Notes: generated by a model from the letters alone, not told the origin. A stretch of 29,146 bases of DNA from Candidatus Aenigmatarchaeota archaeon (GCA_027310605.1 DAIDAN010000001.1:1-29146); one strand, 5' to 3'; shown: positions 12,648-28,331, counted from the first letter of the stretch. Program-made: numbers and translations.

Positions 12648-12842
12648 ATTGTAGGTTTAATGAAAATTGCATTGGCAATTGCAGCAAAATACTCCAGAAA
12701 AACGGGAACGATATTGCGTTGGGAGAATTCGTAACATATACTTGCAAGGAAACCGGTGACACGCGCACAGAATATTTGTGAGAATCATAATAACCTCCGA
12801 TTCCTGGAAATTATTTATACTCTTCTACAAAAACATTTTCTT

Positions 12843-14396
12843 ATGAAAGAGAAAAAAACGCTTTACGATAAAAAAGGAAAAAGAAAGAAGTTCTACCTGA
12901 CAACATCCATAGCGTACACGAACGCGCCGCCGCATATAGGCTTTGCGTACGAGCTCATACTCTCGGATGTTGCGGCGAGGTTCCGCAGGATGAAAGACGA
13001 GGGCATCTTTTTCCTGACGGGAACGGATGAGCACGGGATAAAAATCCAGAAGGCTGCCGAGAAGGCGGGAAAACCTCCGGAAGAGTTCGTGAACGGGATA
13101 TCGGAAAGGTTCATGGAGCTTTGCAAAGCCTTGGCTGTCTCAAACGATTTTTTCATCAGGACAACCGACAGGCAGGTTCACTGGCCGACAGCGCAGAAAA
13201 TCTGGCAAATGCTTGAGAAGAGCGGCGATATCTACAAGAAAAAATACAGCGGATTGTATTGCTATGGCTGCGAGAGCTTCAAGACGGAAAGGGAGCTCGT
13301 GAACGGCCTGTGCCCCGATCACCAGACTGCGCCGGAACCAGTTGAAGAGGAGAATTATTTTTTCTCACTGACAAAATACACCAAGAAAATAGCGGAGCTT
13401 ATAGAAAAGAACGAGATGCTTATAGTTCCCGAGGCAAGGAAGAACGAGGCGCTGAACATATTGAAGGAGATTGAAGACATAAGCTTTTCCCGCCCCGTCT
13501 CATCATTGAAGTGGGGCATTCCCGTTCCTGGCGACGATTCGCAGGCGATTTATGTCTGGTGTGACGCGCTGACGAATTATCTTTCTGGAGTCGGCTTCAC
13601 TTCCGAGCCTAAAAAGTTCAGGAAATACTGGCCTGCGGACCTGCAAGTCATAGGAAAGGACATACTTAAGTTCCACGCGATTTTCTGGCCCGCGATGCTG
13701 CTTTCCGCGAAGCTGCCGCTGCCGAAAAAGATATTCGTGCACGGCTTCATCACCTCGCGCGGGCAGAAAATGAGCAAAACCATTGGCAATGTAGTTGATC
13801 CGTTTGAAATAATAAAGATGTATGGAGCAGAGTCGCTAAGATATTTTTTGCTGCGAGAAATTCCGCACGGCGAGGACGGGGACTTCACGGAGGAAGCTTT
13901 TATGCAGCGCATCAACTCGGACCTCGCGGACAACCTCGGCAATCTTGTGAACAGGGTGCTGGTGTTGACGGAAAAATATTCCGGGGGCAAAGTCCCTAAT
14001 ACGGAAAAGGAATCATTCCTGAAAGAAAAGGCTGAGGAAACGATAAAAAAAGTAAGCGGGAATATGGAAGAATTAAAATTCCACCGTGCGCTTGAGGGCA
14101 TTTTCTCGCTCTCTTCCGAAGCGAACCGCTATCTGAACGAGTCCGCGCCTTGGAAGATAACAGTGAAGGAGGAGCTGGACGCGATACTCTACAACGCGCT
14201 CGAGACGATAAGGATAATATCGGTTTTGCTCTACCCCTTCATGCCGCAGACCGCGGAAAGGATTTCGGAACAGCTCGGAGTGGAAAAGAAATTCACGCAG
14301 GAAAAATTGGCGTGGGGCTTGCTGAAGCCGGGAACAAAAACAAAGCGCGGCGACTTGCTGTTCAGGAAAGTGATGAAGGTGGATGTGGGGGAGTGA
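12843..14396 (+). CDS. metG: Methionine--tRNA ligase, short bacterial-type form
   Basis: FYLTTSIAYTNAPPHIGFAYE, TGTDEHG, single Zn knuckle CYGC...CPDH, WGIPVP, YVWCDAL, GKDILKFHAIFWP, KMSKT; no C-terminal tRNA-binding domain. ATG 12843 chosen over the upstream GTG. Confidence 0.95.
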   Translation: MKEKKTLYDKKGKRKKFYLTTSIAYTNAPPHIGFAYELILSDVAARFRRMKDEGIFFLTGTDEHGIKIQKAAEKAGKPPEEFVNGISERFMELCKALAVSNDFFIRTTDRQVHWPTAQKIWQMLEKSGDIYKKKYSGLYCYGCESFKTERELVNGLCPDHQTAPEPVEEENYFFSLTKYTKKIAELIEKNEMLIVPEARKNEALNILKEIEDISFSRPVSSLKWGIPVPGDDSQAIYVWCDALTNYLSGVGFTSEPKKFRKYWPADLQVIGKDILKFHAIFWPAMLLSAKLPLPKKIFVHGFITSRGQKMSKTIGNVVDPFEIIKMYGAESLRYFLLREIPHGEDGDFTEEAFMQRINSDLADNLGNLVNRVLVLTEKYSGGKVPNTEKESFLKEKAEETIKKVSGNMEELKFHRALEGIFSLSSEANRYLNESAPWKITVKEELDAILYNALETIRIISVLLYPFMPQTAERISEQLGVEKKFTQEKLAWGLLKPGTKTKRGDLLFRKVMKVDVGE

Positions 14397-15279: not shown

Positions 15280-15429
15280 ATGCCACCTGAAAAAATGAAG
15301 CTAAAGGGTATTGAAATAGAAAAGGGTACTCCAATGGAAGTTGCAGAAAAAGTTATCGGAGAAAAAAATGTAGTAATATATCCAGCAACAACAATCAAGA
15401 ATTATGCTGGTATGAAACCCGAGGAATAA
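15280..15429 (+). CDS. 49-aa small protein divergent from the RHH gene (weak DUF2080-like resemblance; below the ORF-track length cutoff)
   Basis: MPPEKMKLKGIEIEKGTPMEVAEKVIGEKNVVIYPATTIKNYAGMKPEE; GGTGAT SD directly upstream. Confidence 0.6.
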   Translation: MPPEKMKLKGIEIEKGTPMEVAEKVIGEKNVVIYPATTIKNYAGMKPEE

Positions 15430-15491
15430 TTTTATTATTTTTCCTATTTTCCTTAACGCTTAAATAAGCAGCCATAGAAATCTTTCTGAGC

Positions 15492-15799
15492 GGGCTCGTA
15501 GTATAGCTGAGCTTTTCTTTCCCGCGCACGAAAAGCTCCACTTTTCGGCGGAGCCGGAAAATCTTAAAGATTTTTCGTGCCAAAGAAAATCTTAAGGAAA
15601 AGAAAGGGTTAGTAAAGCGTCTAGAATGGTTCAGTATCCCTGCCTTGGGAGCAGGAAACCCCTGAAGGCCTTTTTCTTTTTGGTGAAGAACACAAAAAAA
15701 GAAAAACGCCTGCGAAAAAGAAAAACTCAAAATAAAAAGAATAGGAAAAAGGTTCTGGGGATTTCAAAGACCTGAATGAGAGTCAGGGCGAGCCCACCA
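15492..15799 (+). tRNA. tRNA-Pro(TGG) with three introns: D-loop (15509-15626), 53/54 (15665-15762), 59/60 (15769-15782); encoded CCA
   Basis: GGGCTCG/CGAGCCC-A-CCA; anticodon arm CCTGC-CT-TGG-GA-GCAGG; T-stem CCCTG/CAGGG. BHB central helices: CCCC/GGGG (intron 2) and TTCA/TGAG (intron 3) fully paired; intron 1 has 3 of 4 pairs, so its junction is less certain. Confidence 0.9.
15525..15581. repeat. Multi-hairpin element family A, copy 4 (inside tRNA-Pro intron 1)
   Basis: C-GCACG AAAAG ctcca CTTTT CGGCggaGCCG GAAAATCT taa AGATTTTT CGTGC-C; sits in the loop of hairpin TTTTCTTT/AAAGAAAA. Confidence 0.9.
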
Positions 15800-15875
15800 A
15801 GTCTTTTCTTTAAACCGAAAGAGCAGAAACAAAAGGTTTAAATAGATTTGTAGCCAATAAACAGTAGTGATAAAC

Positions 15876-28121: not shown

Positions 28122-28331
28122 AGCCCCGTGGTCTAGCGGCCAAGGTTGAGGCGGTGACTTTCATGCGCAAGTTTGCATAAGTTGTCCGCGTCACCACCGA
28201 AAGGATGGCGGGCTTTGGCGTCTGCTAAAGCAAAGACGGATTTATTTTTTTAAAAGAAAATATTTCCGGATGACGAAGACACCCGCAGACGGCAGAAACA
28301 TTGCCGATTTCGAATCTGCCCGGGGCTACCA
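28122..28331 (+). tRNA. tRNA-Gln(TTG) with three introns: D-loop (~28143-28201), 37/38 (28219-28280), 53/54 (28296-28308); encoded CCA
   Basis: A1-U72 acceptor AGCCCCG/CGGGGCT-A-CCA; GCGGG-CT-TTG-G|A-CCCGC; GGCAG|TTCGAAT-CTGCC. BHB central helices CTTT/GAAG and CGGC/GCCG fully paired; intron 1 junction lies within a duplicated AAGG and has 3 of 4 pairs. Confidence 0.92.

What the first reader, a model, noticed from the sequence alone, without database searches (positions are those of the whole stretch)
15492..15799. 308-nt tRNA-Pro gene with three non-canonical introns and a 6-nt micro-exon
Seen: introns of 118, 98 and 14 nt in the D-loop, at 53/54 and at 59/60; none at the canonical 37/38 site. 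The exon between introns 2 and 3 is only TTCAAA (15763-15768). T54 is needed both in the 3' bulge of intron 2 and in the central helix of intron 3, so the two BHBs are mutually exclusive and splicing should be ordered (inference). Intron 1 carries a family A element and ends in GTCTAG, echoing exon GTATAG. Established: triple-intron tRNAs are known mainly from Thermoproteales; standard tRNA finders often miss genes like this.
Basis: partly seen in the sequence, partly recalled or inferred. Interest (0 to 1): 0.65.

Follow-up and report, generated by a model that had tools for sequence, protein, structure and literature searches.

The report
Three-intron proline tRNA gene, DPANN archaeon
This stretch hides a real proline tRNA gene cut into four pieces, one only six bases long, by three introns. 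[quoted passage not shown]

Summary
Confirmed. Window 15492-15799 encodes tRNA-Pro(UGG) in four collinear exons with introns of 118, 98 and 14 nt: D-loop, 53/54 and 59/60.

- **The product is a tRNA.** The joined exons give a 78-nt cloverleaf that ARAGORN calls tRNA-Pro(tgg). It is 83-90% identical to uninterrupted orthologues in three other families of the order.
- **Standard tools miss the gene.** ARAGORN and Rfam find nothing in the unspliced DNA.
- **One correction.** Intron 1 is 15509-15626, not 15507-15624. All eight orthologues then read AGCTTGG in the D-loop.
- **Conservation.** Introns 2 and 3 sit at the same sites in three relatives. A sister genus has all three as mini-introns of 22, 15 and 16 nt.
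- **Repeats.** The two long introns are swollen by genome-wide repeats: a hairpin family shared among tRNA introns, and a MITE-like element.
- **Machinery.** The genome encodes a two-subunit EndA (alpha plus beta) and a fragment of RtcB.
- **Splicing order.** Intron 3's outer helix exists only once intron 2 is gone, so ordered splicing is plausible. It is not shown, because no RNA runs were listed.

The gene is typical here: about 35 tRNA genes average about 2.3 interruptions each. This scan has noted multi-intron DPANN tRNAs on other DNA many times. It is a new member of a known kind.

The parts
15443..15457 (+). Promoter-like block TTAACGCTTAAATAA (TATA-like box TTAAATAA at 15450-15457), about 35-40 nt upstream of the tRNA 5' end
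   Evidence: Identical in the same-genus orthologues G001 and G002, while the surrounding DNA differs (alignment). Promoter function is inferred from archaeal TATA-box knowledge, not tested.
15492..15508 (+). Exon 1: tRNA nucleotides 1-17 (acceptor 5' strand, U8 A9, D-stem 5' strand GUAU, D-loop AGCU)
   Evidence: The boundary was set by identity of the product's D-loop (AGCTTGG) with all orthologues.
15509..15626 (+). Intron 1, 118 nt, in the D-loop one base 5' of G18. It has a relaxed BHB. Central helix: 15504-15506 with 15621-15623, plus an A15503 x G15624 mismatch. 5' bulge: C U | G at 15507-15509. 3' bulge: A A | U at 15625-15627. Inner helix: 15510-15515 with 15614-15620, with G15619 bulged.
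   Evidence: Geometry read and scored (3 of 4 central pairs). A homologous 22-nt intron with the same helices sits at the same site in G003. The intron is absent in G001 and G002.
15524..15589 (+). Family A repeat (MITE-like multi-hairpin element) nested in the distal loop of intron 1
   Evidence: 30 BLAST hits in the genome. 9 lie inside the census tRNA genes and 21 lie outside the 35 census gene spans. An 88-nt stretch that includes it is 91% identical to a G001 site in apparently non-coding DNA, just upstream of what reads as a start codon and coding sequence (by eye).
15627..15664 (+). Exon 2: nucleotides 17a-53 (rest of D-arm, anticodon arm with UGG at 15645-15647, 4-nt variable loop, T-stem 5' strand)
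15665..15762 (+). Intron 2, 98 nt, at 53/54. Canonical HBh' motif. Central helix: CCCC 15659-15662 with GGGG 15757-15760. 5' bulge: U G | A at 15663-15665. 3' bulge: A U | U at 15761-15763. Inner helix: 15666-15668 with 15754-15756, continuing further.
   Evidence: 4 of 4 central pairs, h' run of 3. The same site and helix occur in G001 (69 nt), G002 (85 nt) and G003 (15 nt). The first three pairs of the inner helix differ compensatorily: AGG/UCU, UGG/CCA, UAA/UUA.
15666..15711 (+). Family B hairpin, a structured repeat shared by introns of many tRNA genes, forming the 5' part of intron 2
   Evidence: 21 BLAST hits. The copies start at exon-intron junctions of other tRNA genes, in the D-loop, T arm and variable arm. 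Twelve aligned copies keep a 13-pair hairpin with compensatory changes at four pairs.
15763..15768 (+). Exon 3: 6-nt micro-exon UUCAAA, T-loop positions 54-59
   Evidence: Identical in G000-G003, and matches the T-loop of the uninterrupted orthologues.
15769..15782 (+). Intron 3, 14 nt, at 59/60. hBH / bulge-helix-loop motif. Central helix: UUCA 15763-15766 with UGAG 15777-15780. The 5' cut (A A | G) lies in a 10-nt loop. 3' bulge: A G | U at 15781-15783. The outer helix is the T stem (15660-15664 with 15784-15788), which becomes contiguous only after intron 2 is removed.
   Evidence: 4 of 4 central pairs; outer helix scores 0 in the unspliced coordinates. Present at the same site in G001, G002 (U54.G becomes U54-A), G003 (16 nt) and G015 of another family (36 nt).
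15783..15799 (+). Exon 4: U60, T-stem 3' strand, acceptor 3' strand, discriminator A73 and encoded CCA (15797-15799)
15802..15811 (+). T-rich tract (TCTTTTCTTT) just after CCA; possible archaeal transcription stop
   Evidence: Read. Function is inferred only.

Best explanation
Window 15492-15799 is most likely the working tRNA-Pro(UGG) gene of a small-genome DPANN archaeon from mine drainage, and no second copy was found in the assembly.

The proposed pathway is as follows. The gene is transcribed as one precursor of at least 308 nt from a conserved TATA-like box. The cell's splicing endonuclease (a two-subunit alpha/beta EndA) cuts at three bulge-helix-bulge type motifs, and RtcB joins the four exons (17, 38, 6 and 17 nt) into a 78-nt tRNA with its CCA encoded.

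- **Intron 1** (15509-15626, D-loop) uses a relaxed motif.
- **Intron 2** (15665-15762, 53/54) uses a canonical HBh' motif.
- **Intron 3** (15769-15782, 59/60) uses an hBH / bulge-helix-loop motif. Its outer helix is the T stem.

Intron 2's motif consumes C49-C51 and places U54 in a bulge. Intron 3's motif needs the T stem and pairs U54. The two therefore cannot coexist, and intron 2 is most likely removed before intron 3 (inference, about 60%).

The three introns are old mini-introns: 22, 15 and 16 nt in the sister genus. In this genus introns 1 and 2 grew by acquiring repeated elements. A structured hairpin family (B) recurs in introns of many tRNA genes, and a MITE-like element (A) also lies outside tRNA genes.

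Shown here: gene structure, conservation, motif geometry and presence of the enzymes. Inferred: transcription, actual cleavage sites, splicing order and circular intron products.
For: 1. The joined exons are called tRNA-Pro(tgg) by ARAGORN. They are 83-90% identical over 78 nt to uninterrupted orthologues of three other families.
2. Eight orthologues show covarying stems. One example is D-stem pair 12-23, which is A-U in G000, G003, G010 and G015 and C-G in G001, G002, G005 and G018.
3. Introns 2 and 3 sit at identical sites in G000-G003. Intron 3 is also present in G015. G003, which is 98% complete, has a single match to the anticodon-arm pattern, and that gene carries all three introns.
4. 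Motif geometry. Intron 2 has 4/4 central pairs plus an inner helix, with compensatory changes in that helix between genomes. Intron 3 has 4/4 central pairs, one of which changes from U.G to U-A. Intron 1 has 3/4 plus an inner helix, and the same arrangement is seen in G003. The cut rule (after the second bulge base; the four exon bases before the 5' bulge pair with the intron) follows PMC4090602 and the preprint's motif definition.
5. No other UGG copy was found in the assembly. The only other proline tRNA found is GGG, on C119, itself with one intron. CCG and CCA make up 65 of 98 proline codons in six window genes.
6. Two adjacent EndA genes lie on C98. The 226-aa protein keeps the catalytic Tyr and His and carries a Lys-rich insert between them. 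Its best match is the Nanoarchaeum equitans alpha subunit (3IEY_A). The 170-aa protein lacks the catalytic His and Lys, so it looks like a beta subunit. An RtcB fragment is present on C144.
7. The promoter-like block is conserved in G000-G002.
8. The locus is present in DNA contigs of two samples.
Against: - No RNA evidence: no spliced junction, precursor or intron circle has been seen.
- Intron 1's motif is only of the relaxed class (3 of 4 central pairs, inner helix interrupted by a 1-nt bulge). Motifs of that quality are common by chance, as shown and by the warning in the preprint. Its exact cut sites therefore rest mainly on orthologue comparison.
- Nearest-neighbour folding prefers other pairings. 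The unconstrained energy is -99.3 kcal/mol, against about -83 kcal/mol with the motifs enforced. It also does not separate the two T-arm conformers (-83.2 against -82.9).
- The EndA alpha candidate has Ala where the catalytic Lys of M. jannaschii EndA aligns.
- The genome is only 75% complete, so a second UGG copy or a CGG isoacceptor could be unassembled.
Confidence: 0.82

Rival explanations
1. Same gene, but intron 1 is cut as the first reader implied (15507-15624). The mature D-loop would then read AGAAUGG rather than AGCUUGG.
For: The product has the same length and is also accepted by ARAGORN as tRNA-Pro(tgg). The central helix also scores 3 of 4 pairs at this placement.
Against: It needs two substitutions relative to all six orthologues without the intron, and a different pair of substitutions again in G003, whereas the 15509-15626 cut gives AGCTTGG in all eight genomes. 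No inner or outer helix abuts the bulges at this placement (h' run 0, h run 0).
Confidence: 0.06
2. The G000 copy is a dying gene. Swelling of intron 1 by repeat insertions, on top of an imperfect central helix, prevents splicing, and proline CCA/CCG codons are served by an unassembled gene.
For: Intron 1 is absent from the two other species of the genus. Its motif is relaxed. The assembly is 75% complete. No RNA data exist.
Against: All four exons are intact and keep every cloverleaf pair and the conserved T-loop. The promoter block is conserved. The repeat sits in the distal loop of the intron and leaves the junction helices as they are in G003's 22-nt intron. About 34 of 35 tRNA genes in this genome are interrupted in the same way, many with the same repeats, so such insertions are evidently tolerated.
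Confidence: 0.07
3. A rival to the ordering sub-claim only. Introns 2 and 3 are removed independently or in either order, because the precursor switches between conformers and a broad-specificity EndA accepts the bulge-helix-loop of intron 3 without a stacked T stem.
For: The two enforced conformers are isoenergetic in nearest-neighbour models. In the red alga C. merolae some introns of a three-intron tRNA are removed in either order (PMC3728597).
Against: In unspliced coordinates intron 3 has no outer helix at all. A 98-nt arm would sit between the T stem and the central helix. Nested archaeal introns that form their motif only after another intron has been removed are described in print.
Confidence: 0.3

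Closest known systems
Multiple-intron tRNA genes and intron 'transposition' in Thermoproteales (Sugahara 2008; Fujishima 2010; reviewed in PMC4033280 and PMC4090602)
   Same: Up to three protein-spliced introns per tRNA at non-canonical sites, including the D-loop and T arm. Relaxed BHB motifs. A two-subunit EndA. Near-identical intron sequences recurring in different tRNA genes at different positions.
   Different: The host is a DPANN-type archaeon of about 0.7-1 Mb, not a crenarchaeon. The interruption load is higher: about 2.3 per gene here in my rough census, against 1.54 in Pyrobaculum calidifontis. The long introns are composites of a mini-intron plus repeats that (for family A) also lie outside tRNA genes.
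[quoted passage not shown]
   Same: About 2.2 intervening sequences per gene, up to five in one gene. Many lie in the D-arm and are missed by standard annotators. They sit at BHB-competent sites.
   Different: [quoted passage not shown] Here one family (B) at about 75-90% identity occupies introns of many different tRNA genes.
[quoted passage not shown]
   Same: A three-intron tRNA processed through BHB motifs in a reproducible order.
   Different: It is a eukaryote. Its motifs can all form independently and one intron is at 37/38. Here none is canonical and two motifs are mutually exclusive.
Nanoarchaeum equitans (alpha-beta)2 EndA (PDB 3IEY) and other broad-specificity EndAs (PMC5829648, PMC3239211)
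   Same: The adjacent 226-aa and 170-aa EndA paralogues match the catalytic alpha and the non-catalytic beta patterns. The alpha candidate has a Lys-rich insert between the catalytic Tyr and His, as in the N. equitans alpha subunit.
   Different: The assembly state was not tested. The alpha candidate aligns Ala to the catalytic Lys. N. equitans uses its enzyme mainly on split tRNAs.

Membership tests
Archaeal protein-spliced (BHB / EndA) tRNA intron | Removing the insert restores a canonical cloverleaf tRNA | tested here: met
   ARAGORN calls the joined exons tRNA-Pro(tgg). The product is 83-90% identical to uninterrupted orthologues.
Archaeal protein-spliced (BHB / EndA) tRNA intron | A 4-bp central helix between the four exon bases before the 5' bulge and the intron bases before the 3' bulge, 3-nt bulges holding the cuts, and at least one flanking helix | tested here: met
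   Intron 2: 4/4 central pairs plus an inner helix (HBh'). Intron 3: 4/4 central pairs plus the T stem as outer helix once intron 2 is removed (hBH / BHL). See and the coordinates under parts.
Archaeal protein-spliced (BHB / EndA) tRNA intron | The same motif for intron 1 | tested here: inconclusive
   3/4 central pairs (A x G mismatch), correct 3-nt bulges, and an inner helix of 1+5 pairs interrupted by one bulged base. This is the relaxed class, which is frequent by chance. The same arrangement is conserved in G003.
Archaeal protein-spliced (BHB / EndA) tRNA intron | The host encodes a splicing endonuclease able to cut relaxed or non-canonical motifs, and an RtcB-type ligase | tested here: met
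   EndA alpha-like and beta-like genes are adjacent on C98. An RtcB fragment lies on C144. Substrate range itself is not testable here.
Archaeal protein-spliced (BHB / EndA) tRNA intron | Spliced RNA and excised intron observed | not testable with these tools
   No RNA run is listed for this DNA.
Transposing intron families (Thermoproteales type) | Closely similar intron sequences in tRNA genes of different identity and at different positions | tested here: met
   Family B copies at 75-90% identity start at junctions in the D-loop, T arm and variable arm of other tRNA genes. By template and ARAGORN these are Arg, Tyr, Leu(GAG) and at least three others, with anticodon labels provisional.
Split or permuted tRNA gene | Exons on separate loci or in permuted order | tested here: not met
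   All four exons are collinear on one strand within 308 nt.
Self-splicing group I / II intron or known intron-borne sRNA (for example box C/D) | Match to a curated RNA family | tested here: not met
   No credible Rfam match at E<=10 in 15400-15900. The best hits are chance-level at 0.4-5.7, far below their gathering scores.

The most novel reading that the evidence does not exclude
This DPANN family may hold an active, structured intron family (B) that spreads between tRNA genes at BHB-competent sites.

The tRNA-Pro locus appears to catch several stages of the process side by side:
- bare mini-introns of 22, 15 and 16 nt in the sister genus;
- the same introns swollen by family B and family A repeats in this genus;
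- three different B subtypes at the same 53/54 site in three congeners;
- a clean loss of the D-loop intron in two congeners, whose D-arm then matches the intron-free tRNA-Pro(GGG) paralogue, which suggests gene conversion.

If this holds, it combines an Asgard-level load (about 2.3 interruptions per gene, up to 4) with a Thermoproteales-type copying signature in a genome of about 1 Mb. That would make a tractable natural system for the open question of how archaeal tRNA introns arrive and leave.
Probability: 0.4. Interest if true: 0.7.

Novelty: new member of a known kind. Interest (0 to 1): 0.45.

Why it matters
On its own, the gene is one more multi-intron archaeal tRNA. It has three wider uses.

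1. **Annotation.** It shows concretely why tRNA sets of DPANN genomes look incomplete. Rfam finds 6 tRNAs at E<=0.001 in this genome and 6 in a 98%-complete relative, against 29-42 in intron-poor members of the same order. A template-guided search recovers about 35 genes.

2. **Intron history.** The locus gives an unusually clean comparative series for intron growth, turnover and loss among close relatives.

3. **An experiment.** The two mutually exclusive motifs around a 6-nt exon are a simple natural test case for ordered EndA splicing.

Tried and rejected
- **RNA evidence.** No RNA holder was listed for this DNA. The four runs laid are DNA contigs of one mine-drainage study. They confirm the locus and the multi-copy nature of the repeats, and nothing about expression.
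- **Thermodynamic folding.** Folding of the precursor and of partially spliced forms does not reproduce the splicing motifs. It cannot rank the two T-arm conformers either.
- **Naming the organism.** A genome-contig scan with the MetRS gave best hits to CPR bacteria and assorted DPANN at 44-53% identity, which is uninformative. An exact look-up of the MCM protein returned only an unnamed Logan contig. The phylum name Aenigmatarchaeota comes from an earlier scan note and was not verified.
- **Wider intron survey.** The anticodon-arm pattern was found in only 8 of 42 genomes of the order. This is probably because other lineages differ in the stem or carry a 37/38 intron, so occupancy beyond those eight is unknown.
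- **Known RNA families.** None was found in the introns, including box C/D, H/ACA and group I/II.
- **Other tools and sources.** The bacterial-type promoter and terminator scan is irrelevant here and found nothing useful. The Sugahara 2007 paper (PMC1852824) is not held.
- **Alternative T arm, considered and rejected.** A T arm CCUGA-AUGAGAG-UCAGG (15771-15787) that would avoid the micro-exon lacks the T54-Psi55-C56 loop and leaves an extra base before the acceptor stem.

Full report
**What is there**

ARAGORN calls it tRNA-Pro(tgg), with a normal cloverleaf and an encoded CCA. None of the partly spliced versions is called.

The unspliced DNA is missed by every tool available here. ARAGORN fails with or without intron mode. 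The Rfam tRNA model fails at gathering score and at E<=1 genome-wide. Every Rfam family fails at E<=10 on 15400-15900.

The window is contig C90 of a 0.70-Mb, 178-contig, 75%-complete assembly. The source is a mine-drainage metagenome. DNA contigs from two samples cover the locus, one in a single piece with one difference.

**Orthologues**

A DNA search of 40 relatives plus an anticodon-arm pattern search found the same gene in seven other genomes of the order.

| Genome | Relation | D-loop intron | 53/54 intron | 59/60 intron |
|---|---|---|---|---|
| G000 (this one) | – | 118 nt | 98 nt | 14 nt |
| G001 | same genus | none | 69 nt | 14 nt |
| G002 | same genus | none | 85 nt | 14 nt |
| G003 | same family, other genus, 98% complete | 22 nt | 15 nt | 16 nt |
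| G015 | another family | none | none | 36 nt |
| G005, G010, G018 | three families | none | none | none |

The three uninterrupted genes are 77-78 nt long. The G000 spliced product is 67/78, 70/78 and 65/78 identical to them. The stem differences appear compensatory by eye, in the T stem, the acceptor pairs and D-stem pair 12-23. That pair is A-U in four genomes and C-G in four.

Each of G001, G002 and G003 (92-98% complete) has a single match to the anticodon-arm pattern. The interrupted gene is therefore the only copy found in each of them.

**Limits of intron 1**

All six orthologues that lack the D-loop intron read AGCTTGG after the D-stem. Cutting G000 at 15508/15509 and 15626/15627 gives exactly that, and so does the equivalent cut in G003.

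I applied the published motif rule: the four exon bases before the 5' bulge pair with the intron bases before the 3' bulge, and the cuts fall after the second base of each 3-nt bulge (PMC4090602; the motif definition). Under that rule the revised limits give:
- central pairs 15504-15506 with 15621-15623, plus an A x G mismatch;
- bulges C U | G and A A | U;
- an inner helix 15510-15515 with 15614-15620, with one bulged base.

G003's 22-nt intron has the same helices.

CTAG is self-complementary, so the intron strand that pairs with exon (A/C)TAG looks like a repeat of it. With the C12 seen in other lineages the helix would be a perfect CUAG/CUAG.

A caveat applies. By strict scoring intron 1 is only in the relaxed class, and motifs of that quality are common by chance (warning). 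The limits therefore rest mainly on the orthologue comparison.

**Introns 2 and 3**

Intron 2 has a full 4-bp central helix (CCCC 15659-15662 with GGGG 15757-15760). Its bulges are U G | A and A U | U. Its inner helix begins A-U, G-C, G.U. In G001 and G002 those first pairs read U-A, G-C, G-C and U-A, A-U, A-U, so they are compensatory.

Intron 3 has a 4-bp central helix between the micro-exon (UUCA 15763-15766) and UGAG 15777-15780. In G002 the U54.G pair becomes U54-A. Its 3' bulge is A G | U. Its 5' cut lies in a 10-nt loop. Its outer helix is the T stem. This is the hBH / bulge-helix-loop class, which the (alpha-beta)2 and epsilon2 enzyme types are reported to cut (PMC4033280).

**Splicing order**

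In unspliced coordinates intron 3 has no outer helix, because intron 2 sits between G53 and U54. Intron 2's motif uses C49-C51 and bulges U54. Intron 3's motif needs C49-G53 in the T stem and pairs U54.

Removal of intron 2 first is the simplest reading. Nested archaeal introns that form their motif only after another has been removed are mentioned in print (PMC3728597). Energy models do not help: -83.2 against -82.9 kcal/mol for the two enforced conformers, both well above the unconstrained -99.3. The order remains an inference.

**What fills the long introns**

The core of intron 1 (15524-15589) has 30 BLAST hits in the genome. Nine fall inside the tRNA genes I could map and 21 fall outside the 35 census gene spans, at least one of which lies in a tRNA gene the census missed. 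An 88-nt stretch that includes it is 91% identical to a G001 site in apparently non-coding DNA, just upstream of what reads as a start codon and coding sequence by eye. It behaves like a MITE lodged in the distal loop of what is a 22-nt intron in G003.

The 5' part of intron 2 (15666-15711) belongs to a second family with 21 hits. Copies begin right at exon-intron junctions of other tRNA genes, in the D-loop, T arm and variable arm. Twelve aligned copies keep a 13-pair hairpin with compensatory changes at four pairs. G001 and G002 carry different subtypes of this family at the same 53/54 site. G001's subtype matches the 53/54 intron of G000's tRNA-Lys. This is the signature described as intron transposition in Thermoproteales.

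**Genome context**

I took 41 tRNA templates from the intron-poor relative G018 and ran a spliced alignment against G000. It recovered 35 tRNA gene candidates. One is uninterrupted, five have one interruption, 14 have two, 12 have three and three have four, counting interruptions of 8 nt or more. ARAGORN gave a call on most of the spliced products, though a few calls carry an unresolved or shifted anticodon. The boundaries are approximate, so these counts are rough.

The T-loop micro-exon layout recurs in tRNA-Lys (C4), tRNA-Gly(GCC) (C94) and tRNA-Tyr (C11).

Rfam detects 6 tRNAs at E<=0.001 in G000 and 6 in G003. It detects 12 in G001, 23 in G002, 17 in G015, and 29-42 in G005, G010 and G018.

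**Need for the gene and machinery to splice it**

The only other proline tRNA found is GGG on C119, itself with one intron of about 91 nt near 60/61. CCG and CCA are 65 of 98 proline codons in six window genes.

Two adjacent EndA genes lie on C98:
- The 226-aa protein keeps the catalytic Tyr and His. It has a Lys-rich insert between them and best matches the N. equitans alpha subunit.
- The 170-aa protein lacks the catalytic His and Lys, so it is beta-like.

An RtcB fragment is on C144.

**Verdict**

The gene type is known from Thermoproteales and now from Asgard. DPANN genomes had already been flagged as disruption-rich (PMC5829648). This scan has also noted multi-intron DPANN tRNA genes many times on other DNA. 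What is worth keeping is the comparative series at this locus and the repeat families inside the introns.

Noticed in passing
G000 C170:1080-1497 (+); also C112:3582-3305 (-) and C167:1288-1756 (+): tRNA genes with four intervening sequences. The tRNA-Leu(GAG) on C170 splices to a clean class II cloverleaf that ARAGORN accepts. Its introns are about 49, 33, 72 and 175 nt, and the last holds two family A copies. Reviews up to 2014 give three as the archaeal maximum, while the 2026 Asgard preprint reports up to five.
   Followed up: partly
window 15771-15787: Intron 3 bases CCUGA pair with U60-G64 of the T-stem 3' strand, giving an alternative 5-bp hairpin that folding prefers. The pairing is kept in G001 (UCUGA, with U.G), G002 and G003. 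In G015, whose T stem differs, another intron segment (GCGGAUU) pairs with AAUCCGC. This may be a conserved holding structure for the 3' T-stem strand while intron 2's motif is formed.
   Followed up: partly
G001 and G002 orthologues (L100, L099) versus G000 C119:3697-3529: The two congeners that lack the D-loop intron have a D-arm (GTCTAGCTTGGTT.AGGAT, pair C12-G23) almost identical to that of the tRNA-Pro(GGG) paralogue. G000 and G003 keep the intron and have pair A12-U23. This fits intron loss by gene conversion between isoacceptors.
   Followed up: no
G000 C98:5055-8319 (L013), frames 1474-2154(-) and 2167-2679(-): Two adjacent EndA paralogues. The catalytic-type one aligns Arg-Ala-Asn where M. 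jannaschii and N. equitans have Arg-Lys-Lys, so the canonical catalytic Lys appears to be missing. About 3 kb away on the same contig is a cluster of family A and B repeats inside tRNA genes (3098-3573).
   Followed up: partly
window 3368-3507: The only Rfam tRNA hit in the window (37 bits). It carries a long insert in the T-stem region that holds a family A copy (3433-3469). ARAGORN on the census splice calls it Arg(gcg) on a Ser-like body.
   Followed up: no
window 28122-28331: A second multi-intron tRNA (Gln-type template) in the same window.
   Followed up: partly
window 12756-14396: The MetRS gene's closest relatives in the genome collection are mostly CPR/Patescibacteria bacteria (about 50-55% identity), mixed with DPANN archaea. 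This hints at inter-domain transfer among ultrasmall organisms.
   Followed up: no
window 53-3208: A 1051-aa open frame with no Pfam match at E<=0.001.
   Followed up: no
G001 C33:5533-5619 (L012): An 88-nt stretch of intron 1's interior, including the family A element, recurs at 91% identity in apparently non-coding DNA. It lies next to a second family A copy and just upstream of what reads as a start codon and coding sequence. The repeated unit can therefore be larger than family A alone.
   Followed up: partly
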